From Candidatus Omnitrophota bacterium (GTDB lineage: Bacteria; Omnitrophota; Gorgyraeia; JABMRN01; RBG-13-46-9), in NCBI GenBank assembly GCA_013203315.1, contig JABMQJ010000018.1:1-64000 (forward strand): a DNA stretch of 64,000 bases. The letters run 5' to 3'. Made by a program: the position numbers and the translations under genes. Below the pieces are notes generated by a model. It was not told the DNA's origin and ran no database searches. It worked only from the letters and a program-made list of their open reading frames with translations. The stretch's first letter is position 1, and each line of letters begins with the position of its first letter. This document shows, piece by piece, positions 178 to 17,055 of the stretch.

Positions 178-1386
178 ATGAAAAATAGTAAAACATTTTG
201 GAATATCTGGACATCATATGCCACGTATTACTTCGGAAAAGTAAATTTAAGTATAGTAGTTCCGGCGCTTTTGGCTACATACAAAGATTTGAATTTATAT
301 AGCGTTGGTTTGGTCTCAAGCGGGTTTTTCTTTGCGTATGCATTAGGACAATTTTTACATGGCCAGATTTCGGAAAGACATAATCCGTTTATCTATATTG
401 CAGTGGGTCTAATCGGTTCTTCAGTTATGAATTTGTTTCTCGGCTTTTCTGGTGGATTTTTCATAATATTATTTCTTGGAGAGGTTCTTGACGGCCTTTT
501 TCAATCAATGGGTTGGTCGTCTTGTGTAAGGGCAAATGCCTTGACACAAAAGAGCAAGGATAGAGAGGTCTCATCTACAATATTAGGTACATCATATCAG
601 GTAGGCAATTCTGTAGCATGGCTTATATCTTCTTTTGCTGTAGGCGCATGGGGTTGGCGGGCCGGTTTCTGGGTCGCAAGTGGTTTCTTGTTTGTAAGAG
701 GAGTATTATTATTATTGACAAAACCAAAACTACAAATAATACCTCCCCAGAAAGTGAAGACCCAACTAAAAAATACATTATCCCTTCCGATTGTATTAAG
801 CGGCATAGCATTATGCTTATTAAATATGGTTAGGTACGGCGTTATCACGTGGATCCCATTATATTTGTTTAAGGCACAGAATTTTGCAGTAGAACAAATG
901 GGGAAGGTAGGCCTGAAGGTATTCTTACTTCCTATCGCAGGAGTTTTGGGCACTTTGATATATAATAAACTCAAAGTCAACAGAGACGTCCTTACTATCA
1001 TATGCCTAATAATGCTGGCAGCCAGTTTTGTAGCCTTGCCGTTTACCACGGGCTTACTGTCAACATTAATGTTATTAGTTGGCAGTTTTTTCCTGTATGG
1101 CCCTCATGTCTTCTTGGTCACAACCTTTCCTACGCGTTTTGTAGATAAACAAGTAGTTGCGGCTTCTACGGGATTCATAGACGGAATGGGTTATATCGGC
1201 ACAGTATTAATAGGCATAATTATTCCCTTTTTGGTTACGTCGGCAAAAGGCAACTGGACAAATGTATTCATATTCTGGGCTGCTCTTTCAATTATGGTGG
1301 CTATCTTTGTCCTTGTCATTTATGTCAGGAGCTTTAAGGATAAAACAATAGATTTTCTAACACTTAATAATCAGGTTAACACCTGA
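178..1386 (+). CDS. MFS transporter, organophosphate:Pi antiporter (GlpT/UhpT/PgtP-like) family
   Basis: 402 aa with about 12 hydrophobic segments. SYATYYFGKVN resembles GlpT GYAAYYLVRKN, FQSMGW and NMVRYG resemble OPA-family motifs, and GFIDGMGYIG lies near the C-terminus. Confidence 0.85.
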   Translation: MKNSKTFWNIWTSYATYYFGKVNLSIVVPALLATYKDLNLYSVGLVSSGFFFAYALGQFLHGQISERHNPFIYIAVGLIGSSVMNLFLGFSGGFFIILFLGEVLDGLFQSMGWSSCVRANALTQKSKDREVSSTILGTSYQVGNSVAWLISSFAVGAWGWRAGFWVASGFLFVRGVLLLLTKPKLQIIPPQKVKTQLKNTLSLPIVLSGIALCLLNMVRYGVITWIPLYLFKAQNFAVEQMGKVGLKVFLLPIAGVLGTLIYNKLKVNRDVLTIICLIMLAASFVALPFTTGLLSTLMLLVGSFFLYGPHVFLVTTFPTRFVDKQVVAASTGFIDGMGYIGTVLIGIIIPFLVTSAKGNWTNVFIFWAALSIMVAIFVLVIYVRSFKDKTIDFLTLNNQVNT

Positions 1387-1412: not shown

Positions 1413-1994
1413 ATGGCCAATAATAATTTTGCAGGAACTATTTTTATCACCGGAATTTCTGTTTCTGGGAAATCAACATTAGGAAGGCGCCTCAAAGAGG
1501 ATTTGCTGAATTACGGATTAGATAACGTAAAGCTTCTTGATGGAGAGGCTGTACGAGAACAGCTTGAAAAACGCGGAAAATATTACGAATATTCCACAGA
1601 AGATCGGAACAAAGTAGCCATGGAAATCGCACATATAGCACTAGAATACAATATGGAAGGGATTAATTGTATTGCGTGTTCGATATGCCATAAAAAGAAA
1701 ACACGTGAACAAATGCGCGCTGTTATTGGCAATTTTATGGAAGTATATCTAGATTGTCCTGTAAGTGTTTGCGCAAAGAGAGATTACAAAGGTCAATATG
1801 TCAAAGCGCTTCAAGGAGCGTATAAAAATTTTGTAGGAATTACCGAAGCATATCAGATTTCTGACCACGTAGAACTTATTCTAAATACAAGCGAAAACAC
1901 CGTAGAAGAATGCCTGAGGGTTTTGTCTGCAAAAGCTAAAAATTTTCTTTTAAGTAAAAGCAAAAGAGTTGATTATGAGCAAACTCACAACTAA
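1413..1994 (+). CDS. cysC: adenylyl-sulfate (APS) kinase
   Basis: P-loop ITGISVSGKST, LLDGEAVR, EVYLDCP..C..RDYKG.Y and FVGI..AY; SD GAGG upstream. Confidence 0.88.
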   Translation: MANNNFAGTIFITGISVSGKSTLGRRLKEDLLNYGLDNVKLLDGEAVREQLEKRGKYYEYSTEDRNKVAMEIAHIALEYNMEGINCIACSICHKKKTREQMRAVIGNFMEVYLDCPVSVCAKRDYKGQYVKALQGAYKNFVGITEAYQISDHVELILNTSENTVEECLRVLSAKAKNFLLSKSKRVDYEQTHN

Positions 1995-2025: not shown

Positions 2026-4206
2026 ATGAAAAAAAACATAAAGATATTTTGCACCCTAGGTCCGTCTTCAATGAACCGTGAAATCATTGCCAAGCTTGAT
2101 AATCTCGGCATAGATATGTTTCGCGTCAATCTTTCACATACTGATATTGATAAACTAGAAGAAACAATATCAAAAATACGGCAGCATACCGATAAACCCA
2201 TATGTCTTGATACGGAGGGAGCGCAGATTCGCGTTGGCTATGTGAAAAACAATGACATCTCTTTAATAGAGAATAGTATAGTCAGGATTGTAAAGCGAAA
2301 AATAGTTGGAAATTCTTCCAAGATTTCACTTAATCCACCGTCTTCGGTAGAACAGATTGTCCCGGGAGACTTGATAAGCATAGATTTTGATTCGGTGCTT
2401 TTACAAGTTATCGAATGCACTCATGATTCGGTAATTGCTAAGGTTGTTTCCGGCGGTACCGTAGGTAGTAATAAAGCTGTAACTGTGGACAGGTTGATAA
2501 AACTCCCAGCTATTTCCACAAAGGATGAAATGGCTATAAAAATTGGGTTAAAAACTGGCATACAACACTTTGCATTATCGTTTGCGGGAAGCAAAGATGA
2601 TATTTATCATTTTCGCAAACTTGTAGGCAAAGGAGCGCGTATAATTTCCAAAATTGAAAACAAAAAAGGTATAGAGAACATAGACGAAATTATTGAAGCG
2701 TCAGATTCGATACTAATTGACAGGGGCGATCTTTCAAGGGAAGAACCTATTGAAAAAATACCTTTCATGCAGAAATTAATTATAAAAAAAGCCAACACTA
2801 AGAATGTACCTGTCTACGTTGCTACGAATTTACTAGAGTCAATGATAAAAAGCAAGAATCCTACAAGGGCAGAAATAAATGACATAATCAATACGCTTTT
2901 AGATGGTGCGGACGGGCTCGTGTTAGCGGCAGAAACCGCTATTGGGTTATATCCTTTAAATTGCGTTACCATGGTGCGCAAGACAATCAAACAATTTTTG
3001 AATTTTTCTGGCAACATGTCTATAAAAAAACTTCAAAAACATGATTCGTTCTTATTGATAGAACCACACGGAGGTAGCCTTGTAGAGAACGTGGCAGATA
3101 ATCCCAACATGAATGAGATTAAAAAATACAAAATTCTAAAAGTCGACAAAAATATATTGCTAGATGCAGAACAAATAGCCATCGGAACTTTTTCGCCATT
3201 GAAGGGTTTCATGAAAAAGGAAGAAGTTGAATCTGTTCTTAAGGAATATAGGCTTCCTAGCGGTATTATTTGGCCTATACCAATTGTACTCCAGATGAAT
3301 AAAAGGGAGATTGAAGGCATAAGTCGCGGGGACAAAGTTGCTTTAGCTTGTAAAGGTACGAACGAGATATACTCAATATTAAATGTAGAACAGATTTATA
3401 AATATGACTTGTCTAAATTCACGAAAGAAACCTTCGGAACCAACAGCATTAAACACCCAGGGGTAAAGCGATCCATGCTTAATGGAGAGTATTTTCTCGG
3501 AGGGACAGTAGAGCTTGTAAAACGTCTTCCTTCAAAATATAAACATCTCGAGATTACGCCAAAACAAGCACGGGCTATTTTTGAAACAAAGGGGTGGAGT
3601 AAAATTATAGGATTCCACACCAGGAACGTTATACATAACGTGCATGAATATATACAGATAGCTGCCTTAGAAAGCTGTGGTTGTGATGGTGTATTTGTTC
3701 ATCCCATTGTTGGTCCGAAGAAGAAAGGTGATTACGCGGAAGATATAATTTTAAAAACATATCAGCTTATGTTGGACAATTTCTATCCAAAAGGAAAAAT
3801 GTTTTTAGGAGCTTTCCAAACTTATTCGAGATATGCAGGGCCAAGAGAGGCGGTATTTACCGCTTTGTGCAGAAAAAACTTTGGATGCAGTCATTTTATA
3901 ATCGGACGAGATCACACAGGGGTTGCCAATTACTATAAGCCATATGATGTGCATGCGTTATTTGATAGACTAGGAGACATCGGTGTGAAACCCATATTTT
4001 TTAAAGAAATGCATTATTGCGTATTGTGCAATAAGTATGTCGATAAATGCGGGCATGCTAACAACAATATTTTACAAATAAGCGGAAGCCGAGGTCGTAA
4101 GATTTTGAAATCACAACAACAACCGCCCGAATGGTTTATGAGAAAAGAGATTTCAGATCTTATTTTAAACGAGTTAAAAAACGGCGAAAAAGTTTTTGTA
4201 AATTAA
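2026..4206 (+). CDS. sat: fusion protein: N-terminal pyruvate-kinase-like A/B domains (about aa 1-325) plus C-terminal Sat-type sulfate adenylyltransferase (about aa 343-726)
   Basis: PK motifs: KIFCTLGP, RVNLSH, SKIEN, RGDL, ATNLLESM, PTRAE..D, DGADG..L..ETA. Sat motifs: EPHGG, G.FSPL.GFM, HTRNVIHNVHE, RYAGPREA, GRDH, zinc-site-like YCVLC..CGH, PPEWFMRKEI. Single uninterrupted ORF. Confidence 0.9.
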   Translation: MKKNIKIFCTLGPSSMNREIIAKLDNLGIDMFRVNLSHTDIDKLEETISKIRQHTDKPICLDTEGAQIRVGYVKNNDISLIENSIVRIVKRKIVGNSSKISLNPPSSVEQIVPGDLISIDFDSVLLQVIECTHDSVIAKVVSGGTVGSNKAVTVDRLIKLPAISTKDEMAIKIGLKTGIQHFALSFAGSKDDIYHFRKLVGKGARIISKIENKKGIENIDEIIEASDSILIDRGDLSREEPIEKIPFMQKLIIKKANTKNVPVYVATNLLESMIKSKNPTRAEINDIINTLLDGADGLVLAAETAIGLYPLNCVTMVRKTIKQFLNFSGNMSIKKLQKHDSFLLIEPHGGSLVENVADNPNMNEIKKYKILKVDKNILLDAEQIAIGTFSPLKGFMKKEEVESVLKEYRLPSGIIWPIPIVLQMNKREIEGISRGDKVALACKGTNEIYSILNVEQIYKYDLSKFTKETFGTNSIKHPGVKRSMLNGEYFLGGTVELVKRLPSKYKHLEITPKQARAIFETKGWSKIIGFHTRNVIHNVHEYIQIAALESCGCDGVFVHPIVGPKKKGDYAEDIILKTYQLMLDNFYPKGKMFLGAFQTYSRYAGPREAVFTALCRKNFGCSHFIIGRDHTGVANYYKPYDVHALFDRLGDIGVKPIFFKEMHYCVLCNKYVDKCGHANNNILQISGSRGRKILKSQQQPPEWFMRKEISDLILNELKNGEKVFVN

Positions 4207-4228: not shown

Positions 4229-5104
4229 ATGCTACAGAACATGGATCATAAATTAAAAAAATTAATTCCACTTAAGCTGAAAAATAGTATCAAGATGCAT
4301 ATGCACGCAAGACGTATAACCAAGGGGGATAAAAAAATATTGTTGTATTTTGAAAAAAATAACATAAAAAACGCTATCCTTTCATGCGGATGGAGAAAAA
4401 GCGGAAATACTTGGTTTAAATTTGTTTTGTATAATTATTTTAATATCCTTATTAACAACGCGAATAAGACGCTTACATTCGAGGAGTTAAAAGAGCATGA
4501 CATAGGAAATCTGGAAGGAGGGTATACTAAACCACGCAAACCCGGTTTTCCCGTATATTACAGTACACATGAGGCTTACCGCAGAATCTTTAGTTACTTT
4601 TTCCGGGTTATTTTTATATATCGAAACCCCTTGGATGCCTGCTTGTCGTATTACTATAATCGCATGGATAGGGTGACTAATTTTAGGGGCGGTTTCCCGA
4701 ATTCGGAGATAAAAAAACTGTATGATATAGATTACTTCGCACTATATAATTTACCCTACTGGATTTATCATTATAAGTCGACAATAGATAAAGCCGATGC
4801 AGTCTTATGCTATGAAGAGATGAGAAAAAATCCATATAGCCAATTTCATAAGGCATTTAAAGAAGCTGGTATTGAAATAAACGAAAATGCTTTAGCTAAA
4901 TCTATTGAAATGTCATCCTTTGATAACATAAGAAAAATGGGTAGAGAAACGAATCAACGCTATGGGGCACAGCACCCAAAGATATTTAAAGGAGAATTTA
5001 CCAGATCCGGCAAATCTAAGCAATATACAGGGACTCTTAAGGCGGGGACGATACAAAAGGCTCAAAAGTTATTGAACGCAAATAGAATTGATATAGTACT
5101 TTAG
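4229..5104 (+). CDS. PAPS-dependent sulfotransferase
   Basis: 5'-PSB-like GWRKSGNTW, 3'-PB-like YRNPLD..LSYY, YEEM and C-terminal F.RSG; adjacent to sat and cysC. Confidence 0.85.
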   Translation: MLQNMDHKLKKLIPLKLKNSIKMHMHARRITKGDKKILLYFEKNNIKNAILSCGWRKSGNTWFKFVLYNYFNILINNANKTLTFEELKEHDIGNLEGGYTKPRKPGFPVYYSTHEAYRRIFSYFFRVIFIYRNPLDACLSYYYNRMDRVTNFRGGFPNSEIKKLYDIDYFALYNLPYWIYHYKSTIDKADAVLCYEEMRKNPYSQFHKAFKEAGIEINENALAKSIEMSSFDNIRKMGRETNQRYGAQHPKIFKGEFTRSGKSKQYTGTLKAGTIQKAQKLLNANRIDIVL

Positions 5105-5127: not shown

Positions 5128-6144
5128 TTGAAGATACTTGTAACCGGAGGAGCAGGCTATATAGGCTCCGTAATAGTTAACCTAGCTTTGAAAAGCGGTT
5201 TCAAGGTCAAAGCCGTAGACGCGCTTTGGTATGACAAAAACGTCCCTATAATAAACTTCAATGACCCCAATTACGAGTTTAAAAGGCTCGATATACGTGA
5301 TAGCGTATTTTTGAATGAGTGCCTTGAAGACGTGGATTTTGTCGTGCATACTGCCGCCGTAGTTGGCGAACCAGCGGGAAAGAAATTCTCAGACCTTACA
5401 TATAGAGTCAACTACGAAGCTTCGAAACGGCTTATAGATAAATTAGAAGAAAAACAAGTGAAAGGCTTTATATTTCTTTCAACGTGCTCAAATTATGGAA
5501 TTTCCGATGGTTTAATAAACGAAACAGCCTTACTTAAACCTCTTTCTCTTTACGCAGAGACAAAGGTTAATATCGAAAGATATCTAACCAATAACGCAAA
5601 AAGCTTGGATTGGGTTATATGCAGGCTCTCGACAGCCTATGGATCTTCTCCTAGGATGAGATTCGATTTAACGGTTAACGACTTTACAGTAAATGCCCTT
5701 TTGAACAAGATGTTAGAGGTTTATTTACCAAAAACGTATAGACCATATATACATGTCTATGATATCGCACGCGTGATATTACGAATTATATCAGATTTTG
5801 ACAGAGTCAAAAACAATGTATTTAATGTGGGATTTGAAGGGGAAAATTATCAAAAATACCAGATAGCTGAAATCATAGAGAAATTTGTGCCTAGCACGGA
5901 AATAAAGATTATCAAAAAAGGGATAGATGCCCGAAATTACAAAGTGGATTTTTCGAAACTTAAGAAATTTTTAAATATCGAAAAAATCCATACAGTGAAG
6001 TCAGGAGTAAAAGAGATCGTAGATCTTGTAGAGAAAGGCATAATAACCAATTATAAAGATAAAAAATATTACAATACTTTTCTGGATCTAAAGGAAGAAA
6101 TAGACTATAACGCATTCCTCAAATCGGAGATCAAAGCTAAATGA
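5128..6144 (+). CDS. NAD-dependent nucleotide-sugar epimerase/dehydratase (extended SDR)
   Basis: TTG start after SD GAAGGGG; ILVTGGAGYIG, STCSNYG, YAETK, SPRMRFDL. Confidence 0.9.
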   Translation: MKILVTGGAGYIGSVIVNLALKSGFKVKAVDALWYDKNVPIINFNDPNYEFKRLDIRDSVFLNECLEDVDFVVHTAAVVGEPAGKKFSDLTYRVNYEASKRLIDKLEEKQVKGFIFLSTCSNYGISDGLINETALLKPLSLYAETKVNIERYLTNNAKSLDWVICRLSTAYGSSPRMRFDLTVNDFTVNALLNKMLEVYLPKTYRPYIHVYDIARVILRIISDFDRVKNNVFNVGFEGENYQKYQIAEIIEKFVPSTEIKIIKKGIDARNYKVDFSKLKKFLNIEKIHTVKSGVKEIVDLVEKGIITNYKDKKYYNTFLDLKEEIDYNAFLKSEIKAK

Positions 6145-7313
6145 ACTATAAAATACCTCTTTCGGTTCCTGTGGCAAATGGAAATGAGTGGAAGTATGTC
6201 AAAGAGTGCTTGGATACCGCTTGGCTGGCTTCAGGGAAATTTGTAGATAAATTTGAAAAAGCAATTTGTCAATATACGAAAGCGAAATTTGCTATTGCGT
6301 GTATAAACGGAACTTCAGGCTTACAACTTGCCCTGCGTTTATCCGGCGTGAAAACCAACGATGAAATTATAGTTCCCACGTTGACATTCATAGCACCGGT
6401 AAATGTAATTTCATATCTTGGTGCCGAACCTGTTTTTATGGACTGCGATGACTATATGAATTTGGATGTTGAAAAATTAAATCAATTCTGTAAAGACGAA
6501 TGTAAATTAACAAAATCAGGTTTAAGAAACAAGAGAACTGGACGGATAATTAGGGCTGTGGTACCGGTTCACATATTCGGCAATCCATGTGATATGACAA
6601 ACATAATGAAAATAGCGCACAAGTATAACTTAAAAGTCATTGAGGATGCAGCAGAGAGCCTTGGTTCATATTTTAAAGGAGGTTTGTATAAAAATAGGTT
6701 TACGGGGACCATAGGGGATTTTGGAGTTTATTCTTTCAATGGGAATAAAATTATTACGACAGGCGGCGGCGGGATGCTAGTTACAAACAACAGAAAATTG
6801 GCAGAAAAAGCAAGATATTTTGCCACACAGGCCAAAAATGACCCTATAAATTATGTCCATAGTGAAATCGGATATAATTTTAGGTTATCAAATATACAAT
6901 CAGCCTTGGGAATAGCCCAACTAGAACGCTTGGAGAATGTTATTAAAATAAAGAAGAAAAATTACGACCTTTATAAAAAGGAGCTAAGTGATATATGTGA
7001 AGTGGAGCTGTTGGGTGCCCCGGAAGATACAAGGCCCAATTATTGGTTCTATTCTTTAATTATCGAAAAGAAGATGTGTGGTATGGGCAAGGAAGGACTA
7101 ACACGTAGATTTCTTGAGAATGGAATACAAGCAAGGCCTATATGGTATCTAAACCATATGCAGAAACCATACCGTAACAAGCAAGCATTTAAAATAGAGA
7201 AAGCAATATGGTTTTGGAAAAGAACCCTGAACATGCCATGCAGCCCCAATCTTGCAGAAAAAGAAATTAAGAAAATTTCGTCGATTATAAAAAATAAAAA
7301 TACAAAAAGGTAA
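6141..7313 (+). CDS. legC: LegC-family PLP-dependent sugar aminotransferase (DegT/DnrJ/EryC1/StrS)
   Basis: IPLSVP...GNEWKYVKEC, PTLTFIA, EDAAESLG, SFNGNKIITTGGGG; nonulosonate gene context. Confidence 0.88.
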   Translation: MNYKIPLSVPVANGNEWKYVKECLDTAWLASGKFVDKFEKAICQYTKAKFAIACINGTSGLQLALRLSGVKTNDEIIVPTLTFIAPVNVISYLGAEPVFMDCDDYMNLDVEKLNQFCKDECKLTKSGLRNKRTGRIIRAVVPVHIFGNPCDMTNIMKIAHKYNLKVIEDAAESLGSYFKGGLYKNRFTGTIGDFGVYSFNGNKIITTGGGGMLVTNNRKLAEKARYFATQAKNDPINYVHSEIGYNFRLSNIQSALGIAQLERLENVIKIKKKNYDLYKKELSDICEVELLGAPEDTRPNYWFYSLIIEKKMCGMGKEGLTRRFLENGIQARPIWYLNHMQKPYRNKQAFKIEKAIWFWKRTLNMPCSPNLAEKEIKKISSIIKNKNTKR

Positions 7314-7321
7314 CACGTTTG

Positions 7322-7960
7322 ATGGCTAAAAAAATAAAAGAAGATATTGTGTTAATTGGCGGAGGGGGACATGCAAAGGTTGTAATAGATGCTGTCCGAA
7401 AAGTAAAGAAAATCAGAATTTACGGCATAGTGGACTCGAAGTTACGCAAGGGCGATTCTTTCTTGGGGGTACCGATTTTAGGAGACGATAGTGTTCTTCC
7501 AGAGCTATTTAAAAAAGGGATTAAAAAGGCTTTTATTGCTGTAGGTTCAATTGGGGGCTGCAGTATAAGGAAAAAACTCTATGCTAATTTAAAAAATATA
7601 GGCTTTGAACTTCCAGCGATAAAGCATCAGGGAGCTGTCATAGCCGGTGATGTCAAAATTGGAGAAGGGAGCTTTGTTGCAGCCGGTGCAGTCATAAATC
7701 CGGGAGTAAAAATAGGAAAGAACGTGATAATTAATACAAGAGCATCGATCGACCACGATTGTGAAATAGGGGATTTTGTTCACATTGCACCAGGGGTTAC
7801 ATTAAGCGGGGGAGTAAAGATAGATAAAGAAACCCATGTAGGTACAGGCGCTAATATAATACAGTACGTGAAAATTGGCAAAGGATGTTTAATCTCGGCC
7901 GGGAGTACAATTATCAGAAATGTAGCAGATAAGGAGAATAATTGTGAATTCAAAAAATGA
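7322..7960 (+). CDS. neuD: NeuD/PglD-family sugar acetyltransferase (hexapeptide repeat)
   Basis: IGGGGHAKVVID, IINTRASIDHDC.IGDFVHIAPG and left-handed beta-helix repeats. ATG at 7322 (in-frame TTG at 7319). Confidence 0.88.
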   Translation: MAKKIKEDIVLIGGGGHAKVVIDAVRKVKKIRIYGIVDSKLRKGDSFLGVPILGDDSVLPELFKKGIKKAFIAVGSIGGCSIRKKLYANLKNIGFELPAIKHQGAVIAGDVKIGEGSFVAAGAVINPGVKIGKNVIINTRASIDHDCEIGDFVHIAPGVTLSGGVKIDKETHVGTGANIIQYVKIGKGCLISAGSTIIRNVADKENNCEFKK

Positions 7961-9032
7961 ACGAATTAAAAAATTAAATATCTCACCGGATACTACACTA
8001 AAAACAGCTATGCGCGCTCTAAACGCTGGAGATGCCAGGGTTCTTTTTGTAATGGATAATGAGCAAAGACTTATAGGTTGTGTTACAGATGGCGATGTAC
8101 GAAGGGGTATTTTGAATGCTATTGGATTCGAAAGGCCTGTTTCAGAGATTATGTTTAAGTTTCCACGTTTTGTCAGACAATTTGAAAAAGATTTTAAAGA
8201 GAAGGCAAGACAATACGTGCTTGACGAAAAACTTTACACAATTCCAGTTCTGGATTCATCAGACAGGATAGTAGATGTTCTTTTTTGGCATGAATTCATA
8301 GACAAACACCCTCTTGAGCCTAAGGAAGTAAAGCAAATTACAAATCCCATTGTAATAATGGCAGGTGGAAAGGGCGAAAGACTCAATCCTTTTACAAGGA
8401 TACTACCAAAACCGCTTATTCCTTTCGGCGATAAGCCTATAATAGAAAAAATAATGGATAACTTTGCAAAACACGGTTTCAGAAATTTCATACTGACTCT
8501 TAATTATAAAAAGGAGTTTATAAAAATGTATCTTAAAGAAAGCAAGCTTCCTTACAACATAGAAGTGGTTGAGGAAGAAAAGTTTCTTGGTAGCGCTGGA
8601 AGTCTAGTGTTTTTAAAAGATAAAGTTAAAGAAACTTTTTTTGTGTGTAACTGTGATACTTTTTTAATAAATAATTTCAGAAACATATTACTTTGGCATA
8701 AGGGTGAACAAGCGCTCCTTACACTCATAGGTTGTCATAAAGAAACAATACTTCCTTATGGCGTTCTAAGGGTAGACAACGGTTGCCTAAACTCTATTGA
8801 GGAGAAACCCAAATTCGACATGATTATAAACACAGGCGTTTATCTAATTGAGCCAGAGGTCTTATCGTTAATAAAGCCCGGAGAATATATAGATATGAAT
8901 CGCCTCGTAGAAAGGGTTTTGAAGAAGGGTAAAGTGACTGTTTTCCCTGTGGTTGATGGTTGGTCTGATATAGGACAATGGAAGGAATATAACGAGAGTT
9001 TGCATTTACTGCAGAATGGTATAGAAAGATGA
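7944..9032 (+). CDS. CBS-domain nucleotidyltransferase (PtmE-like, sugar-1-phosphate guanylyltransferase type)
   Basis: N-terminal CBS pair (TDGDVRRG), then IMAGGKGERL.P.T...PKPL, EEKP and DIG; typical of legionaminic acid loci. Confidence 0.85.
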   Translation: MNSKNERIKKLNISPDTTLKTAMRALNAGDARVLFVMDNEQRLIGCVTDGDVRRGILNAIGFERPVSEIMFKFPRFVRQFEKDFKEKARQYVLDEKLYTIPVLDSSDRIVDVLFWHEFIDKHPLEPKEVKQITNPIVIMAGGKGERLNPFTRILPKPLIPFGDKPIIEKIMDNFAKHGFRNFILTLNYKKEFIKMYLKESKLPYNIEVVEEEKFLGSAGSLVFLKDKVKETFFVCNCDTFLINNFRNILLWHKGEQALLTLIGCHKETILPYGVLRVDNGCLNSIEEKPKFDMIINTGVYLIEPEVLSLIKPGEYIDMNRLVERVLKKGKVTVFPVVDGWSDIGQWKEYNESLHLLQNGIER

Positions 9033-10201
9033 GCACACGTAATCGAAAGATACTGATTGTTACAGGATCGCGCGCAGAGTACGGACTGCTTTATTGGGTT
9101 ATAAGGAAGATACACGAAAATCCCGACTTGGAATTACAGCTAATTGTTACTGGAACACACCTTTCACCAAAATTTGGACTAACAATAAAAGAAATAGAAA
9201 GTGACGGCTTTCCTATAAGAGGCAGGGTGAAAATACCCCTTTCATCGGATTCCAGTAAGGCAATATCTATAGCAATGGGGCATGCTATAATTGGTTTCGC
9301 AAGTATATATGCACGCTTAAGACCAGATATAATAGTTGTTTTAGGTGATCGCTTCGAAATTCATGCAGCGGTAAGTGCCGCTATACCTTTTGGGATTCCA
9401 ATCGCACATATTCATGGCGGAGAATTGACAGAAGGGGTTTTTGACGAGCAGTTGAGACACTCTATTACGAAAATGAGCCATATTCACTTTGCTTCTACAA
9501 AAGTTTATAGAAAAAGAATTATACAGATGGGGGAGAGGCCTAAATACGTTTTTTGTTTCGGCTCTCCGGCAATAGATAACATTTTAGGAACTAAGCTTCT
9601 AGAGAGGAAAGACCTATATAAAAACCTTGGCATACCAGAGGGTAAAAAAATTGGGATATGCACCTATCATCCTACTTCGCTGGGGCTAAGTAGTAAGGGA
9701 AGTGAAATTGGCGGATTACTTGATTCTATCAGGGAGACGAAAGAACTATGGTGGGTTTTTACTGCATGTAATGCAGATACAGGAAATCGAGCAATAATTA
9801 AAGAGATTAAAAATTTTGTCAAAAAAAATCACAAAATATGCAAATTCTATATGTCATTGGGGCGGCGAAGATATTTGTCTCTTTTGAAAAATACATCCCT
9901 TATGATAGGTAATTCTTCAAGTGGCATTATAGAGGCGCCTAGCTTTAAACTACCTGTTATAAATATCGGAGATAGGCAAAAAGGAAGAATAAGAGCGAAA
10001 AACGTTATCGATATTAAGAAGTGTGAAAAAAAACTAGTTTCAAATGCTATAAAACGTGCCGTTTCACCAAAATTTAAAGATAGCATAAAAAGGGTAAGAA
10101 ACCCGTATGGTTCAGGCAAATCCAGCAAGAAAATCGTAAATACGCTAAAAAGAATATCCATAGATGAAAAGTTGATTAAAAAAGAATTCTATGAAACTTA
10201 A
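9029..10201 (+). CDS. neuC: hydrolysing NDP-N-acetylhexosamine 2-epimerase (NeuC/LegG)
   Basis: TGSRAEYGLL, GTHLS..FG, LGDRFE, HIHGGE, RHSITKMSH, GNSSSGIIEAP, GDRQKGR, NPYG.G. Confidence 0.92.
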   Translation: MSTRNRKILIVTGSRAEYGLLYWVIRKIHENPDLELQLIVTGTHLSPKFGLTIKEIESDGFPIRGRVKIPLSSDSSKAISIAMGHAIIGFASIYARLRPDIIVVLGDRFEIHAAVSAAIPFGIPIAHIHGGELTEGVFDEQLRHSITKMSHIHFASTKVYRKRIIQMGERPKYVFCFGSPAIDNILGTKLLERKDLYKNLGIPEGKKIGICTYHPTSLGLSSKGSEIGGLLDSIRETKELWWVFTACNADTGNRAIIKEIKNFVKKNHKICKFYMSLGRRRYLSLLKNTSLMIGNSSSGIIEAPSFKLPVINIGDRQKGRIRAKNVIDIKKCEKKLVSNAIKRAVSPKFKDSIKRVRNPYGSGKSSKKIVNTLKRISIDEKLIKKEFYET

Positions 10202-11630
10202 AGTAGTAATTATTAATCCTCCCATACGCTTAACCGATAAGCCGAGACATATTCCGCACGGCTTGGCAATACTTGCTAATATAATTCGGAAAAAGCTTGG
10301 GATAGCACCTGTTTTTATCGATATTAACGCACATCGCTATAGTGATAAGAAAGTCCAGTCGATCTTGGAAACGATGCAATTCGATGTTGTTCTTATCGGA
10401 GGATTGATACCCGTTTATAAAAGGATTATTTTCTATGCGGATATGATCAAACGAATAAATCCAAAGGCCATAATTATTGCTGGTGGAAGTGCTGCGATGT
10501 CAGTTCCGGAATTGTTGTTGAGGAATTCAAAAGTCGACTGCATATGTGCTGGAGAAGGCGAAAAAGTTATCATTGATATCCTTAATGGGTTAGAAAACTA
10601 TGCCCTGAAGGAGCTGACTCACATTAAAGGATTTTACTTTAAAATAGGCGATGAAATATTATGTTCGGGAAAACCCGATTTATTGAAAAAACTCGATTTA
10701 GAAAGTGATATCCCAGCCTACGACTTGCTTCCGATGGATATATATTTATCGAACCCGTCGGTAGGGCTCGGAAAAGATGTGGATTTTATTTCAAGTCGTG
10801 GTTGTCCTTTCAGTTGCACCTTTTGCTATCAACCCTGGGGCAGAAGATTCAGGGCTCATTCCCCAGATTTCATTATAGATGCGCTTAAATATCTCAAGAA
10901 ACGCTATCGTATAGATTTTTTGTCTTTTCAGGATGACGAATTTTTGGCAGATAGAAAACGCGTATATGAATTATGTGAAAAAATTGGAAAACATATCCCC
11001 AATCTATTATGGTCATGTACAGGAAGGGCGAATCTTGTTACGGATGAACTGGTTGGCGCTATGAAGAATGCGGGATGTGTCTCAATTTCTTACGGGTTTG
11101 AATCTGGCTCTCAGAGAATATTGGATTCCATGAATAAAAAAGTAACGATAAATGATATGCAAAATGCAATTATGTTAAACAGAAAGTATGGGATGATGCT
11201 TCCCGTATCTTTTATGATCGGTATGCCGGAAGAAGACGAGGAGTCGTGCAGGGAGACTGTTGAATTTTGCGTAAGGAACAATATTCCGCTAAGATCCATG
11301 ATGTTTGTAACGCCCTATCCTGGAACGCAGTTATTTGAGGATGCCGTTTCTGGGGGGCGTATTGAAAGGAATAAAATACATGATTTTGTTATGTCCCTAG
11401 AAGATGCTAGGGATTTTACTATTAATTTAACCGATGTATTTACCGATGAGGGTTTAATTTTAAAACGCGCAGAGATGATAAAGAATGTGTGTTCACGAGT
11501 TAAATTGGAATCCAAAGAACATTATAAGGCTAAAGTGGAAAGTTTGTTTGGAGATTTAGCCAACGATTATTTTGAAAACGAAGTATTATTAAAACACCGC
11601 ACCGAACACGGCGGTATGGATATTTTTTAG
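10191..11630 (+). CDS. cobalamin-binding radical SAM protein
   Basis: N-terminal B12-binding-like domain (P.GLA.LA, IIAGG, GEGE), SSRGCPFSCTFC, GFESGSQRIL, PYPGT. Confidence 0.9.
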   Translation: MKLKVVIINPPIRLTDKPRHIPHGLAILANIIRKKLGIAPVFIDINAHRYSDKKVQSILETMQFDVVLIGGLIPVYKRIIFYADMIKRINPKAIIIAGGSAAMSVPELLLRNSKVDCICAGEGEKVIIDILNGLENYALKELTHIKGFYFKIGDEILCSGKPDLLKKLDLESDIPAYDLLPMDIYLSNPSVGLGKDVDFISSRGCPFSCTFCYQPWGRRFRAHSPDFIIDALKYLKKRYRIDFLSFQDDEFLADRKRVYELCEKIGKHIPNLLWSCTGRANLVTDELVGAMKNAGCVSISYGFESGSQRILDSMNKKVTINDMQNAIMLNRKYGMMLPVSFMIGMPEEDEESCRETVEFCVRNNIPLRSMMFVTPYPGTQLFEDAVSGGRIERNKIHDFVMSLEDARDFTINLTDVFTDEGLILKRAEMIKNVCSRVKLESKEHYKAKVESLFGDLANDYFENEVLLKHRTEHGGMDIF

Positions 11631-12368: not shown

Positions 12369-13391
12369 TTGAAAATGTACAGATTTGATAATCATATTGC
12401 TGCTTATGACGAATCGCGGCGCTACAATCGCAAAGGAGAAATAGCAGCCTTCCCTCCTTATGTTACTTTTGAACTGGGAAATAGCTGTAATTTTTCGTGC
12501 ATTATGTGCCGTAAGACCTACATTAAGGAAAAGAAAGAAGAGCTAGATTTTTCAGTATTTAAGAAATGCGTAGACGAAATATCAAATTATGGAAGTCTGG
12601 TGAGATTTATAGGTTACTGCGAGCCGCTTCTCTATAGCAAAATAAAAGATGCTATACGATACGTAAAGAAAAAAGGACTACGTTTGCATATTACGACAAA
12701 TGGTAGCCTTTTAAACAGAGAGATGATAAATGCAATACTCGAAAACGAAGTAGATAGCGTAATTTTTTCTTTTCAAGGATTTACGCAAGAAGAAGATTGC
12801 TTTATGCGAAATATCTCTTGTAAAACCTACTCTAATGTAGTGAATAAAATAAAATTGCTGCATAAAAGTAGAAAATCTGAAAAGCCATATATTACCATAA
12901 GTACCACAATCACAAGTCGTGATAATCCGGAATATGAAACTGAATTTATAAAAAGACATATGTGTTATGCGGACCAAGTTCAAGTTACTGGAGCCACGCA
13001 TTTTGCGTTTATCGAGGATGAGTCCGGTATAAGAGATATAGAGAAAAAACTGGGGCTCAATAAGCCGCGAAAGCTGAAAAATGTGAAATGTTTTTTAACT
13101 AATTATGAGATGAAAATTGCAGAAAATGGAAATGTTTATATGTGTTGCGGTTCATTTACCGATGAACTTAATATCGGCAACATAGAGAAGAATACTCTCT
13201 TTAATATGTGGCACTCCGAAAAAGCTATGAAAATTAGGGAAACGTTGGCATTCGGCGATCTGGATAAATTCAAGAACTGCAGGGCTTGCCAGATACGCTA
13301 CGACTATGACAAAATAGGTAATACGATAATGAATACGATGAAGGGAAAGAACAAAAAAAAGAAGATGGAACTCTATGCAGAAGAAAGATAG
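12369..13391 (+). CDS. radical SAM protein with SPASM/twitch domain
   Basis: CNFSCIMC, EPLL, TTNG, and C-terminal C...G.V..CC...IGNI...W...CRAC; TTG start. Confidence 0.88.
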   Translation: MKMYRFDNHIAAYDESRRYNRKGEIAAFPPYVTFELGNSCNFSCIMCRKTYIKEKKEELDFSVFKKCVDEISNYGSLVRFIGYCEPLLYSKIKDAIRYVKKKGLRLHITTNGSLLNREMINAILENEVDSVIFSFQGFTQEEDCFMRNISCKTYSNVVNKIKLLHKSRKSEKPYITISTTITSRDNPEYETEFIKRHMCYADQVQVTGATHFAFIEDESGIRDIEKKLGLNKPRKLKNVKCFLTNYEMKIAENGNVYMCCGSFTDELNIGNIEKNTLFNMWHSEKAMKIRETLAFGDLDKFKNCRACQIRYDYDKIGNTIMNTMKGKNKKKKMELYAEER

Positions 13392-14532: not shown

Positions 14533-14543
14533 GAGGATACCAG

Positions 14544-15161
14544 ATGGTTTCTATCGTAAATTATAAGATGGGAAATATCCGTTCGATACAGAACGCGTTG
14601 TCGTATCTGGGTGTTGACTCTCGTGTGATAGATTCGCCCGAGGAGATATTGACCAGTAAGAAACTGATTCTTCCGGGAGTCGGTTCTTTCCGTGTTGCCA
14701 TGGAGCACATACGGGCGATGAAGCTCTTTGAGGCCCTGAATGAGGCTGCATTAAAACAAGGAGTTCCTCTCCTTGGTATCTGTTTAGGAATGCAGTTATT
14801 GGCAACTGAAGGTGAAGAGGAAGGCCCTACCAAGGGTTTTGGCTGGATTCCTGGCAGGGTAAAACGCTTTTCACCTGAAAGATTATCCATAAAGGTGCCG
14901 CACATAGGTTTCAATACAGTATATTTTGAGCCCAAATCCAAAACTCTATTTGAAGGGTTGGAAACTTGCGCTGATTTTTATTTCGTCCATAGCTACAGAA
15001 TGATATGTGAGGAGCCCGAAAAATGCGTTTCATCATGGGCAGATTATGGTGAACGTTTTGTAGCCAGCGTAGAGCATCGCAATATCTTCGGTACTCAATT
15101 CCATCCGGAGAAAAGCCAAAGCAACGGCCTGACAGTGCTTAAGAATTTTTGTGCAATTTAA
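14544..15161 (+). CDS. hisH: class I glutamine amidotransferase, HisH/WbuY-like
   Basis: NYKMGNI.S, LPGVGSF, LGICLGMQ (catalytic Cys), PHIG.N, YFVHSY, QFHPEKS. ATG at 14544 after SD GAGGA; the track's TTG at 14505 overlaps the previous gene. Confidence 0.9.
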   Translation: MVSIVNYKMGNIRSIQNALSYLGVDSRVIDSPEEILTSKKLILPGVGSFRVAMEHIRAMKLFEALNEAALKQGVPLLGICLGMQLLATEGEEEGPTKGFGWIPGRVKRFSPERLSIKVPHIGFNTVYFEPKSKTLFEGLETCADFYFVHSYRMICEEPEKCVSSWADYGERFVASVEHRNIFGTQFHPEKSQSNGLTVLKNFCAI

Positions 15162-15171
15162 GGTGTAATAA

Positions 15172-16050: not shown

Positions 16051-17055
16051 ATGAAAGGAAAGTTTTTTATGAAATGCGGCATTACTCAAAACATAGCAAA
16101 AAATCTCGTTTTTATTGATGGTATTACTCGTAGCGGCAAGTCAGTTTTTACAGGGATAATACCTTCATTGAGAGATTTTGAACATATACAATTTTATCTC
16201 CTGATGGAGTTAATGATACCGGCTGTTTCTCTTGGCCTTACGGATGCGGAATACGTAAAAACTGTACTTCGCCTCCATATGGGCGAAGTCGCATATAATT
16301 TGTTATTGGCCAGAGGAATGAATTTCAGGTATGAAGATGAAACAGGGGTTTTGAATTACAAAGATCCTCAAGTTTACTACGAACGCCTAGCAAGGCAGGA
16401 GGGTGATAAGATAATCGAAGACTTGCTTTGCCATAAACGTTTTATCCCTTTCCATACACATGATTTACTTGTAAATCTAGAACATCTTAATAAGATGGAT
16501 ATCGACTATAAAATGATATCGGTATTTAGGCACCCAATAGACAATAGTCATTCATGGTGGACGCGGGGCTGGGGAGAGCGTTTTGGCGTTGACCCCAGGT
16601 CGTTTACTTTTTGCATCGATTACGAAGGAAAGTTAGTGCCATGGTATGTAGCAGGATTTGAGAAAGAATGGCTAGAATTAAATCCCAAGGAAAGGTGTAT
16701 AAAAACCTCAATAAGCCTTATAAAGCGTGCCGTTAATCAATATAAAAATACGTCAGAAAAGAATAAAATTCACCTAATAAAGTTTAAGGATTTTGTTCAA
16801 AATCCTCACGAGCAGATAGAAAAAATTTGTGCTTTTCTTAATACAAACACCACGCAACATACAGAGCATTTTATCCGCAAGGCCAAATGCCCGCGCGTGC
16901 TGAATCTCAAAGAAAGAGATTCGAATCTCGCAGAATTAAAGTCCGGTGTTAAGAAGGAAATATTTGAGTTGTTGTTAGAAACGTCCGAATCATATGAGAC
17001 TGATTTCTACGGCTTGCATAAAAAAGAAAATCTAGCGAAAGAAAAGATGGTTTAA
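16051..17055 (+). CDS. putative sulfotransferase
   Basis: FIDGITRSGKS (5'-PSB-like), FRHPID..HSW (3'-PB-like), F.DF..NP...I..IC.FL. A possible alternative start is ATG 16069 with SD AAGGA. Confidence 0.7.
   Translation: MKGKFFMKCGITQNIAKNLVFIDGITRSGKSVFTGIIPSLRDFEHIQFYLLMELMIPAVSLGLTDAEYVKTVLRLHMGEVAYNLLLARGMNFRYEDETGVLNYKDPQVYYERLARQEGDKIIEDLLCHKRFIPFHTHDLLVNLEHLNKMDIDYKMISVFRHPIDNSHSWWTRGWGERFGVDPRSFTFCIDYEGKLVPWYVAGFEKEWLELNPKERCIKTSISLIKRAVNQYKNTSEKNKIHLIKFKDFVQNPHEQIEKICAFLNTNTTQHTEHFIRKAKCPRVLNLKERDSNLAELKSGVKKEIFELLLETSESYETDFYGLHKKENLAKEKMV

What the first reader, a model, noticed from the sequence alone, without database searches (positions are those of the whole stretch)
2026..4206. 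Pyruvate-kinase / ATP-sulfurylase fusion inside a PAPS-supply operon
Seen: one 726-aa ORF joins a pyruvate kinase A/B barrel (ends near nt 3000, with no allosteric C domain) to an intact Sat (starts LLIEPHGG near nt 3052), between APS kinase and a sulfotransferase. Established: Sat is known fused to APS kinase, and its unfavourable equilibrium is normally pulled by pyrophosphatase or by GTP hydrolysis (CysDN). I do not know a characterised PK-Sat fusion. No pyrophosphatase or cysQ is seen in the window. Inference: a dedicated PEP-driven PAPS generator in which the PK domain turns ADP released by CysC back into ATP beside the Sat active site, to feed glycan sulfation.
Basis: partly seen in the sequence, partly recalled or inferred. 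Interest (0 to 1): 0.85.

Follow-up and report, generated by a model that had tools for sequence, protein, structure and literature searches.

The report
Pyruvate-kinase domain fused to ATP sulfurylase
A real and widespread, but apparently unstudied, enzyme joins a short pyruvate kinase to the sulfate-activating enzyme, and its free-standing relatives sit beside APS kinase, so it probably regenerates ATP from PEP to drive synthesis of the sulfate donor PAPS.

Summary
ORF 2026-4206 (726 aa) is a pyruvate-kinase A/B barrel without the C domain, joined to PUA_2 and an ATP-sulfurylase catalytic domain. It lies between an APS-kinase-like gene and a sulfotransferase.

It is not an assembly artefact. 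Contigs of four runs cross the junction unchanged, and all 120 listed homologues share the architecture. Eighty full-length copies were fetched from genomes of many bacterial phyla, archaea and cultured rhizobia.

New here: the kinase part belongs to a distinct subfamily, which I call PK-S. It keeps the residues conserved in solved pyruvate kinases but has its own signature motifs. It is only 35% identical to the genome's housekeeping kinase.

PK-S also exists free-standing. An APS kinase then lies directly downstream in 35 of 42 loci with room. One protein fuses APS kinase, PK and Sat.

This supports PEP-driven recycling of ADP to ATP for PAPS synthesis. An engineered cascade needs the same step in vitro.

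Nothing is shown biochemically. "Dedicated to glycan sulfation" is overstated, because the fusion is the genome's only Sat and a CysH exists. Five literature searches found no description. Interest is moderate to high.

The parts
1413..1994 (+). Divergent APS kinase (CysC-like), 193 aa, 31 nt upstream of the fusion
   Evidence: Pfam APS_kinase E 5.1e-33. It is below all NCBIfam cut-offs, e.g. TIGR00455 116.4 against 138.7. The P-loop and the RD.KG.Y block are kept. It has E where 59 of 60 relatives have D in the DGD block. The closest solved structure is the APS-kinase domain of PAPSS1, E 5.8e-22.
2026..4206 (+). PK-S / ATP-sulfurylase fusion gene, 726 aa (P0001)
   Evidence: An AGGA stands about 12 nt before the ATG at 2026. 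AF2 model: mean pLDDT 89.4, pTM 0.68.
2032..2967 (+). Pyruvate-kinase A/B barrel of the PK-S subfamily (residues 3-314), no C domain
   Evidence: Pfam PF00224 E 1.3e-74. It aligns to E. coli PykF 8eq3, residues 2-329, E 3.5e-58. Residues invariant in 33 fusions: R33 N35 S37 H38 D62 R69 N149 K209 E211 R233 D235 T267 E303.
2968..3057 (+). Linker (residues 315-344), including the last PK helix and the non-conserved M331
   Evidence: pLDDT is lower here, 64-81 in the blocks covering residues 301-350. The segment is poorly conserved in A1. No Shine-Dalgarno-like motif precedes the ATG at 3016.
3058..3522 (+). PUA_2 N-terminal domain of ATP sulfurylase (residues 345-499)
   Evidence: Pfam PF14306 E 5.1e-43.
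3544..4167 (+). ATP-sulfurylase catalytic domain (residues 507-714)
   Evidence: Pfam PF01747 E 2.7e-73. NF003166 scores 426.9 bits against a cut-off of 387. The closest solved structure is the M. thermolithotrophicus ATPS 8a8d, E 8.1e-99. Invariant in A1: H531 T532 R533 N534 H537 H540 G627 R628 H630 C665 C668 C675 H677.
4229..5104 (+). Sulfotransferase, 291 aa, 22 nt downstream of the fusion
   Evidence: Pfam Sulfotransfer_1 E 1.6e-14.
16051..17055 (+). Second sulfotransferase-like gene of the same + strand cluster
   Evidence: Pfam Sulfotransfer_1 E 7.7e-8 and Sulfotransfer_3 E 1.3e-5.
5128..11630 (+). Sugar-nucleotide and nonulosonic-acid-type genes following the PAPS module (context). They are an epimerase/dehydratase, a DegT aminotransferase, a PglD-like acetyltransferase, a CBS-nucleotidyltransferase, a UDP-GlcNAc 2-epimerase and a B12-radical SAM enzyme.
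178..1386 (+). MFS transporter upstream (context only; not conserved next to other fusions)
   Evidence: Pfam MFS_1 E 9.3e-32. It gives weak matches to PgtP/GlpT/UhpC-type models, far below their cut-offs. tblastn found 0 of 80 related loci with a match.

Best explanation
The gene encodes a two-enzyme protein. The C-terminal part is a working ATP sulfurylase of the zinc-type, Thermus/methanogen-like kind (ATP + sulfate -> APS + PPi). The N-terminal part is a working but unregulated pyruvate kinase of a separate subfamily, which I call PK-S here. It uses PEP to turn ADP back into ATP.

The ADP comes from the neighbouring APS kinase (APS + ATP -> PAPS + ADP). With the kinase domain, the module's net reaction becomes sulfate + ATP + PEP -> PAPS + PPi + pyruvate. 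ADP is kept low, which should relieve the ADP-dependent dead-end inhibition of APS kinase. ATP is kept high for both ATP-using steps.

PAPS then goes to the sulfotransferases of the glycan cluster. In this genome it probably also goes to CysH.

Shown here: the architecture, the conservation of residues, the subfamily, and the gene linkage. Inferred: the catalytic activity, the direction of benefit, and any physical coupling.
For: 1. The catalytic machinery is kept. The PK part aligns over residues 3-318 with E. coli PykF residues 2-329. The blocks R.N.SH, LD..G..IR, NK, SKIE, RGD, AT, PTRAE and ET..G are shared with PykF. They are invariant in 33 fusions that are 51-70% identical overall and in 20 free-standing relatives. 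Which of these residues are catalytic is recalled, not computed.

2. The Sat part passes NCBIfam's curated cut-off, 426.9 against 387.

3. PK-S is a distinct lineage tied to sulfate activation. The fusion's kinase part is 47-60% identical to free-standing PK-S proteins of about 337 aa. It is only 35% identical to the genome's own housekeeping kinase, which has the PykF-type motifs. A tree of 179 kinase parts separates 162 PK-S rows from 17 housekeeping rows (support for that split is only 77).

4. Linkage to APS kinase:
- Free-standing PK-S has an APS kinase directly downstream in 35 of 42 loci with at least 450 nt of room, and adjacent on either side in 40 of 50.
- In the Pfam tally of 146 neighbouring ORFs from 55 loci, APS_kinase is the top family with 37.
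- Fused loci have an APS kinase directly downstream in 26 of 72, an APS kinase anywhere within 8 kb in 39 of 78, a sulfotransferase-like gene in 39 of 78, and either one in 65 of 78 (Pfam tallies).

5. Rosetta stone: P0071 (879 aa) is APS kinase (4-96) - PK (151-460) - PUA_2 - Sat, the same order as the genes in the window.

6. Precedent. In an engineered cascade, PK/PEP regeneration was needed for PAPS synthesis by human PAPSS1. Without it ADP accumulated and the PAPS peak was 'practically missing'. The authors ascribe this to a dead-end enzyme-ADP-APS complex (PMC9885120, passages read).

7. A hint that the kinase part works. In the one-contig relative G012, 91% complete, the fused gene is the only PK barrel found.
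Against: - No activity has been measured for any member.
- PK-S carries family-wide substitutions inside conserved kinase blocks. Against PykF: LDTKGPEIR becomes LDTEGAQIR, ATQML becomes ATNLL, MLSGES becomes VLAAET, and RGDLG becomes RGDLS. These could change rate, cation dependence or substrate.
- The protein stays below the curated pyruvate-kinase cut-off, 295.5 against 306.4.
- ADP and ATP diffuse freely, and the cell already has a housekeeping kinase. A fused kinase therefore gives no obvious kinetic gain unless there is channelling or very high local flux.
- Half of the fused genome loci (39 of 78) show no APS kinase within 8 kb.
- The kinase reaction removes neither direct product of Sat (APS, PPi), so it does not by itself explain fusion to Sat rather than to APS kinase.
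- The window's own APS kinase is an outlier of its group: E for D in the DGD block and SICH where most have [VI]S/T-P/A.
Confidence: 0.6

Rival explanations
1. The kinase domain is catalytic but does something other than plain ADP recycling. It might use another phosphoryl acceptor (GDP or another nucleotide), or have changed cation or proton-relay chemistry. It might also bind APS, which resembles ADP, as a sensor or buffer of the inhibitory intermediate.
For: PK-S has family-wide, invariant substitutions inside active-site blocks. The Sat part also has an invariant H where the solved Sats have Q (FHTRN against FQTRN). Both halves have therefore diverged together from the standard enzymes.
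Against: All residues shared between PK-S and solved kinases in the PEP/metal/nucleotide blocks are kept. The tightest neighbour is the one enzyme of the pathway that releases ADP.
Confidence: 0.15
2. The kinase domain is a scaffold or regulatory module. It would oligomerise the Sat or sense PEP / energy state, as the APS-kinase-like domain of fungal Sat senses PAPS (recalled). It would have little or no catalytic turnover.
For: It has lost the C domain that mediates allostery and one tetramer interface in ordinary kinases. It scores below the curated PK cut-off. Pyruvate kinases form dimers through the A domain (recalled).
Against: Strict invariance of the metal, PEP and nucleotide blocks across phyla and archaea at 43-70% overall identity is what selection on catalysis gives. 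Loss of the C domain is not special to the fusion: the housekeeping kinases of this whole class lack it too.
Confidence: 0.12
3. There is no functional coupling. PK-S is simply an extra glycolytic isozyme carried along in mobile sulfation islands, and the fusion is a neutral accident that spread by horizontal transfer.
For: The distribution is patchy and crosses phyla. Only 3 full-length fused frames occur among 31 genomes of the class. Copies lie on rhizobial megaplasmids.
Against: The PK-S/APS-kinase adjacency and the PK-S/Sat fusion are both conserved. The tree needs at least 5 changes between the fused and free states while the sulfation context is kept. A triple fusion also exists.
Confidence: 0.1
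4. The fusion is an assembly, frameshift or gene-calling artefact, and there are really two genes.
For: An in-frame ATG (3016) lies in the linker.
Against: Contigs from four runs cross 2990-3060 with no difference. All 120 listed homologues, and 78 of 80 genome loci, have one continuous frame. M331 is not conserved, and no ribosome-binding motif precedes it.
Confidence: 0.01

Closest known systems
Bifunctional PAPS synthases (Sat fused to APS kinase: human PAPSS1/2, Aquifex aeolicus 2gks, fungal Sat with an APS-kinase-like domain)
   Same: Sulfate-activation enzymes are joined on one chain so that sequential steps are co-expressed. The Sat part here is homologous to theirs (2gks E 9.4e-64, 1i2d E 2.5e-53).
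   Different: The fused partner here is a pyruvate kinase, not APS kinase. APS kinase is a separate gene in the window. Only P0071 carries all three.
Engineered PAPS cascades with PK/PEP ATP regeneration (PMC9885120; An et al. 2017, seen only in that paper's reference list)
   Same: The same three activities are combined (Sat, APS kinase, pyruvate kinase), with the stated purpose of removing ADP and restoring ATP.
   Different: Those are man-made mixtures of unrelated enzymes. Here the combination is encoded naturally, with a dedicated kinase subfamily, and has not been tested.
CysDN, the GTP-coupled sulfate adenylyltransferase
   Same: It is another way of putting extra phosphoanhydride energy into an unfavourable sulfate activation (established knowledge, recalled).
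   Different: CysN couples GTP hydrolysis mechanically to APS formation. A pyruvate kinase can act only through the adenylate pool. No CysD-type match was found in this genome: the PF01507 search found one match, which NCBIfam scores as CysH.
Stand-alone zinc-type ATP sulfurylases (M. thermolithotrophicus 8a8d, T. thermophilus 1v47)
   Same: These are the closest solved relatives of the Sat part (E 8.1e-99 and 6e-79). The Cys/Cys/Cys/His positions line up partly with 1v47.
   Different: They have no N-terminal kinase, and they have Q where the fusion family has an invariant H in the F[QH]TRN block.
Short pyruvate kinases without a C domain (NCBIfam NF005234 / PRK06739 type; the housekeeping kinases of this class)
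   Same: A and B domains only, about 335-350 aa.
   Different: PK-S is not one of them. It scores 179.5 bits against a cut-off of 564 for NF005234. It is 35% identical to the genome's own short kinase and has different motifs.

Membership tests
Pyruvate kinase (EC 2.7.1.40) | A/B barrel domain (Pfam PF00224) over its full length | tested here: met
   Residues 3-314 match profile positions 2-328 of 328, E 1.3e-74.
Pyruvate kinase (EC 2.7.1.40) | Conserved metal, PEP and nucleotide blocks shared with solved kinases | tested here: met
   Alignment with PykF 8eq3. R33 N35 S37 H38 D62 R69 N149 K209 E211 R233 D235 T267 E303 are invariant in A1, and K150 is at least 90% conserved. The roles of single residues are recalled.
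Pyruvate kinase (EC 2.7.1.40) | C-terminal alpha/beta (allosteric) domain, PF02887 | tested here: not met
   No PF02887 match in the protein or anywhere in the genome. The NCBIfam PK models match only positions 2-337 of 476.
Pyruvate kinase (EC 2.7.1.40) | Curated whole-protein cut-off of the equivalog model TIGR01064 | tested here: not met
   295.5 bits against a cut-off of 306.4. The genome's housekeeping kinase scores 440.7.
Pyruvate kinase (EC 2.7.1.40) | PEP + ADP -> pyruvate + ATP activity | not testable with these tools
   Needs an enzyme assay.
ATP sulfurylase, Sat type (EC 2.7.7.4) | PUA_2 plus the ATP-sulfurylase catalytic domain, and the curated cut-off | tested here: met
   PF14306 and PF01747 match. 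NF003166 scores 426.9 against 387, and TIGR00339 scores 344.7 against 322.95.
ATP sulfurylase, Sat type (EC 2.7.7.4) | Nucleotidyl-transferase H..H block and the GRDH block | tested here: met
   H537 and H540, and G627 R628 H630, are invariant in A1. D629 is at least 90% conserved. They align with 8a8d and 1v47.
ATP sulfurylase, Sat type (EC 2.7.7.4) | Q of the FQTRN block seen in the solved Sats | tested here: not met
   The fusion family has an invariant H531 (FHTRN) where 8a8d, 1v47 and 2gks have Q. The consequence is unknown.
Bifunctional PAPS synthase (Sat + APS kinase on one chain) | An APS-kinase domain on the same polypeptide as Sat | tested here: not met
   P0001 has no PF01583 match. 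APS kinase is the separate gene 1413-1994. Only P0071 has it fused.
APS kinase (for the neighbour gene 1413-1994) | Pfam domain, P-loop and the conserved DGD / RD.KG.Y blocks | tested here: inconclusive
   PF01583 E 5.1e-33, and the P-loop and RDYKGQY are present. It is below all NCBIfam cut-offs. It has E where 59 of 60 PK-S-linked relatives have D.

The most novel reading that the evidence does not exclude
PK-S, APS kinase and Sat form a physical, self-recharging PAPS synthase. It would hand ADP and ATP between active sites, so that PAPS output depends on PEP rather than on the cell's adenylate charge. PK-S would then be the hallmark component of non-assimilatory sulfation pathways across bacteria and archaea. 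It would also be a natural single-operon catalyst for making PAPS from sulfate, PEP and catalytic ATP.
Probability: 0.3. Interest if true: 0.75.

Novelty: new variant of a known kind. Interest (0 to 1): 0.6.

Why it matters
Sulfate activation is thermodynamically uphill, and its second step is throttled by ADP. The known natural remedies are pyrophosphatase, GTP coupling (CysDN) and fusion of Sat with APS kinase. A dedicated pyruvate-kinase subfamily wired into PAPS synthesis would be a fourth remedy.

- It would explain a widespread protein family that genome annotation currently hides under the name 'sulfate adenylyltransferase'.
- It would give a marker for sulfation (as opposed to assimilation) gene clusters in environmental genomes.
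- PAPS is the costly reagent that limits enzymatic synthesis of sulfated glycans. A natural PEP-driven PAPS module would therefore be of practical use.
- Orthologues in cultured, tractable rhizobia (Sinorhizobium, Ensifer, Mesorhizobium) and in Methyloversatilis make the idea directly testable.

Tried and rejected
- Related loci with the single protein. The search for related loci with P0001 alone found no relative. The alignment A1 was needed.
- Other window genes in related loci. tblastn with the window's sulfotransferase and MFS proteins found nothing in the 80 genome loci. Neighbours were therefore typed by Pfam tallies and by profile searches in a script.
- Limits of the script searches. 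In one search jackhmmer seeded with the first sulfotransferase (4229-5104) found 0 ORFs, and the second seed found 75. The sulfotransferase counts thus rest on one seed. They are unvalidated one by one and are best read as approximate.
- Limits of my gene calling. It is a greedy longest-ORF picker. In L092 and L093 it preferred an opposite-strand ORF over the APS kinase that tblastn saw, so the Pfam tallies slightly undercount.
- Rows dropped. L028 and L045 had no continuous fused ORF found by the picker and were dropped from the counts of fused genome loci. L150 and L159 had a Sat hit right after a 406-431-aa frame, probably a frameshift or a contig end, and were dropped from the 'free-standing' set. 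Seven metagenome loci with the kinase cut by a contig end, or with no ORF picked, were not classed.
- Complex prediction. The fusion with the window's APS kinase, each with an alignment, gave no verdict: score 0.12, mark 0.32. This is no evidence either way.
- Expression. No RNA holder was listed, so nothing can be said on expression.
- Plasmid annotation. The region of the Ensifer adhaerens record carries no annotation in the copy at hand.
- Literature. Five full-text searches returned coupled-assay, proteomics or metabolic-reconstruction papers. None describes a PK-Sat fusion or a sulfation-linked pyruvate kinase. For most I saw only the listing and the start of the abstract. I read passages of PMC10839748 (Nitrospinota; no mention of the fusion) and of PMC9885120.
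- Internal start. I considered and rejected an internal translation start at 3016 that would give a separate Sat. M331 is not conserved and has no ribosome-binding motif.
- Not done. I did not run fold search, the search of protein representatives or the protein-atlas search. The sequence matches to solved structures were already unambiguous.
Full report
THE OBSERVATION

ORF 2026-4206 (+) is a single open frame of 726 aa. Pfam finds three domains:
- a full pyruvate-kinase barrel at residues 3-314 (E 1.3e-74);
- the PUA_2 domain at residues 345-499;
- the ATP-sulfurylase catalytic domain at residues 507-714.

NCBIfam puts the Sat half above its curated cut-off (NF003166, 426.9 against 387). The kinase half matches only positions 2-337 of the 476-position kinase model and stays just below the cut-off (295.5 against 306.4). 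The C domain is therefore absent.

An APS-kinase-like gene (1413-1994) lies 31 nt upstream and a Sulfotransfer_1 gene (4229-5104) lies 22 nt downstream, all on the + strand. The scan found no + strand terminator-like site between them.

The junction is sound.
- Separately assembled contigs of four runs cross it with no difference. All four runs are from one freshwater study, and three of them may be the source.
- M331, the in-frame ATG at 3016, is not conserved and has no ribosome-binding motif. The ATG at 2026 has an AGGA about 12 nt upstream.

HOW COMMON IT IS

The fusion is not a curiosity of this genome.
- All 120 listed homologues (51-100% identity, 673-879 aa) carry the same three Pfam domains. 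Where a source names them, the name is 'sulfate adenylyltransferase', 'ATP sulfurylase' or 'pyruvate kinase'.
The 80 best are all full-length at 43-63% identity.
- Those 80 come from Omnitrophota, 'Deltaproteobacteria', Planctomycetota, Elusimicrobia, Nitrospinota, Chloroflexota, Actinomycetota, Verrucomicrobiota and many Alphaproteobacteria. They include cultured Mesorhizobium, Sinorhizobium saheli and Methyloversatilis, and also Methanosarcinales and a Pacearchaeota archaeon.
- Two rhizobial megaplasmids or chromids also carry it.
- Within the window's own class it is patchy. Full-length fused frames occur in 3 of 31 genomes (G000, G012, G015), plus contig-end fragments in three more.

THE KINASE HALF IS A SEPARATE SUBFAMILY

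- A search for shorter proteins with residues 1-335 gave 3996 hits. The 120 best are kinase-barrel-only proteins of 319-388 aa, 48-60% identical to the fusion's kinase half. Several lie on long contigs, up to 1.3 Mb.
- Aligned together, these and the fusion share blocks that differ from E. coli PykF as printed:
  - LD[ST]EGAQ.R for LDTKGPEIR;
  - IDRGDLSR for VARGDLGVE;
  - ATNLLESM for ATQMLDSM;
  - GLVLAAETA for AVMLSGESA.
- The genome's own housekeeping kinase (337 aa, contig C3) has the PykF-type blocks and is only 35% identical.
- That housekeeping kinase passes the curated kinase cut-off (440.7 bits).
- It too lacks a C domain, as do the housekeeping kinases of 17 of the 18 related genomes where a full-length one was found. 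No PK_C match exists in the genome. Loss of the C domain is therefore not what marks the fusion.
- A FastTree tree of 179 kinase parts separates 162 PK-S rows from 17 housekeeping rows, with support of 77 for that split. It shows a 58-row clade of free-standing forms and a 98-row clade that is mostly fused (89 fused, 9 free). Archaeal and planctomycete fused rows lie nearest the outgroup.
- The tree needs 8 changes between fused and free, of which at least 5 are forced by well-supported branches. The direction of change cannot be read from this tree. Some 'free' rows inside the fused clade may be frameshifted gene calls.
- The residues that PK-S shares with solved kinases are invariant or nearly so. 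That these are the metal, PEP and nucleotide ligands is my recollection of the kinase literature, not a computed result.

WHAT IT KEEPS COMPANY WITH

Counts below come, using an APS-kinase profile built from A7 and a sulfotransferase jackhmmer profile.

| Locus set | n | APS kinase within locus | APS kinase directly downstream | APS kinase adjacent, either side | Sulfotransferase-like | Either |
|---|---|---|---|---|---|---|
| Fused, genome loci (flanks up to 8 kb) | 78 | 39 | 26 of 72 with room | 29 of 77 | 39 | 65 |
| Fused, metagenome loci | 16 | 8 | 7 of 16 | 7 of 16 | 7 | 13 |
| Free-standing PK-S, metagenome loci | 55 | 41 | 35 of 42 with room | 40 of 50 | 15 | 44 |

- For the fused genome loci, neutral Pfam tallies of the two ORFs on each side agree. 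Downstream: APS_kinase 27, Sulfotransfer_3 11 and Sulfotransfer_1 10 of 141. Upstream: Sulfotransfer_3 21 and Sulfotransfer_1 16 of 138.
- The telling result concerns the free-standing form. Of 80 metagenome loci fetched with a PK-S alignment, 55 hold a free-standing gene of about 337 aa, 16 hold a fused one, and 9 could not be classed.
- The Pfam tally of 146 neighbouring ORFs from the 55 free-standing loci is led by APS_kinase (37). Next come several generic P-loop NTPase families (17-21 each), which probably hit the same APS-kinase ORFs. Then come ABC_tran 15, TauE 14, Sulfotransfer_3 13 and Sulfotransfer_1 8.
- A Sat lies next to a free-standing PK-S in only two of these loci, L101 and L132.
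- PK-S is therefore tied first of all to APS kinase, the one enzyme of the pathway that releases ADP.
- One protein, P0071 (879 aa, one contig), joins APS kinase, PK, PUA_2 and Sat in that order. This is the gene order of the window.
- The APS kinases next to PK-S keep the P-loop, DGD..R and RD.KG.Y blocks (60 sequences). The window's copy is an outlier at two positions and falls below NCBIfam's cut-offs.

THE GENOME AROUND IT

The genome is 1.5 Mb in 32 contigs and 97% complete.
- The fusion is the only ATP-sulfurylase match.
- No CysD was found. The single PAPS_reduct match is a CysH (163.5 bits against a cut-off of 154). It sits beside a sulfate-permease-like gene and an Rrf2 regulator, and a sulfite-reductase-like gene lies about 8 kb away.
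- A second, more canonical APS kinase lies on contig C8.
- The fusion therefore probably feeds assimilation as well as sulfation, so 'dedicated' is too strong.
- No soluble family-I pyrophosphatase was found, but a membrane H+-PPase is present. One Inositol_P-family gene is closer to SuhB-type models than to CysQ models.
- The rest of the window is one long + strand cluster of sugar-nucleotide and nonulosonic-acid-type genes. It includes a second sulfotransferase at 16051-17055, three B12-radical-SAM enzymes, three CMP-sugar-synthetase-like genes, a HisH/HisF-like pair and a GT2. Glycan sulfation is a reasonable use of the PAPS.

MECHANISM

The simplest reading that fits all of this has four steps.
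1. Sat makes APS.
2. The neighbouring APS kinase makes PAPS and ADP.
3. PK-S uses PEP to turn that ADP back into ATP.
4. The net reaction is sulfate + ATP + PEP -> PAPS + PPi + pyruvate.

Why this should help is documented for an engineered system. With human PAPSS1, leaving out the PK/PEP regeneration let ADP accumulate and left the PAPS peak 'practically missing'. The authors ascribe this to the dead-end enzyme-ADP-APS complex of APS kinase (PMC9885120, passages).

Shown here are the architecture, residue conservation, subfamily status and gene linkage. Inferred are the catalytic competence, the benefit, and any physical hand-over of nucleotides.

The AF2 model is confident for both halves (mean pLDDT 89.4) with a weaker linker and pTM 0.68. 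This says nothing firm about how the halves are oriented to each other.

I give this reading 0.6. The rivals are an altered reaction or APS sensing (0.15), a non-catalytic scaffold or sensor (0.12), hitch-hiking without coupling (0.1) and an artefact (0.01). They are set out in their own section.

COMPARISON WITH WHAT IS KNOWN, AND NOVELTY

- It works like a PAPS synthase with a built-in ATP-regenerating step.
- It is a member of the Sat family by every test except one signature residue (H for Q in F[QH]TRN).
- It is a pyruvate-kinase-family protein that fails two membership tests, the C domain and the curated cut-off.
- It is not a bifunctional Sat/APS-kinase.
- Five full-text searches found no paper on such a fusion or on a sulfation-linked pyruvate kinase. 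Supplements and subscription journals were out of reach.
- I rate it a new variant of a known kind. The sequences are public and numerous, but the family, its tie to APS kinase and its probable role appear undescribed.

VERDICT

Interest is 0.6. It remains well above ordinary, because a widespread, testable and practically useful enzyme family emerges from it.

Noticed in passing
G000 contig C3:34992-35948 (L001:1450-2463, - strand) and relatives L167-L183, L188: The housekeeping pyruvate kinases of this whole class lack the C-terminal allosteric domain. Open frames are 329-384 aa in 17 of the 18 related genomes with a full-length housekeeping kinase, and 506 aa in G021. No PK_C match exists in the window's genome. 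The window genome's short kinase still passes the curated kinase cut-off (440.7 bits).
   Followed up: partly
relative genome G012 (one contig), C1:1136584-1137531: In this single-contig genome, 91% complete, the fused PK-Sat (757-aa frame) is the only pyruvate-kinase barrel found. Either the fused kinase also serves glycolysis there, or the organism does without a pyruvate kinase.
   Followed up: no
G000 contig C8:21212-21652 (L195:1402-2319, - strand): A second, more canonical APS kinase (Pfam 194 bits) is fused to an N-terminal CTP_transf_like (nucleotidyltransferase) domain in a 304-305-aa protein. It lies between an amino-acid permease and a zinc alcohol dehydrogenase. Its role is unknown.
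   Followed up: partly
G000 contig C1:68819-69421 and 76160-79648 (L194, L086): There is an assimilatory set: CysH (above the NCBIfam cut-off), a CysP-type sulfate-permease-like gene, an Rrf2/CymR-like regulator and a 300-aa NIR_SIR protein. The only Sat in the genome, however, is the fusion in the glycan cluster.
   Followed up: partly
window 178-1386 (+): The MFS transporter just upstream of the PAPS module gives weak matches to phosphoglycerate/PEP, glycerol-3-phosphate and hexose-phosphate antiporter models, far below their cut-offs. A PEP or organophosphate importer beside a PEP-using enzyme would be suggestive. It is not conserved next to other fusions (0 of 80 loci).
   Followed up: partly
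window 5128-30669 (+): The cluster holds three B12-binding radical-SAM enzymes (10191-11630, 23509-25179, 27311-28783) and a radical-SAM/SPASM protein (12369-13391). It also holds three CTP_transf_3 genes, one of them fused to a GT2 (25922-27307), and a HisH/HisF-like pair (14505-16002). Further genes are an Ldh_2 dehydrogenase, a GDSL hydrolase and a methyltransferase. This is an unusually elaborate sugar-modification cluster.
   Followed up: partly
window 13375-14532, 17980-20022, 28750-30669 (+): Three long ORFs (385, 680 and 639 aa) inside the glycan cluster have no Pfam match at E <= 1e-4.
   Followed up: no
metagenome loci L087-L157 (free-standing PK-S): Besides APS kinase, the neighbours of free-standing PK-S often include TauE/SafE-type anion permeases (14 of 146 ORFs) and ABC-transporter ATPases (15 of 146). 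These are possibly sulfate uptake genes.
   Followed up: no
L057:10825-12081 and 7 other fused loci: A Na_H_Exchanger-family membrane protein follows the APS kinase in Sinorhizobium saheli (L057; typed). The family appears 8 times among the two ORFs downstream of the fused gene in the 73 genome loci tallied. Which loci these are was not determined.
   Followed up: no
L004:3092-4012: In the closest named relative locus, an Omnitrophota MAG with a fusion 63% identical, the gene directly downstream is an Inositol_P-family phosphatase. It is a candidate PAP phosphatase (CysQ-like), which the window's cluster lacks.
   Followed up: no
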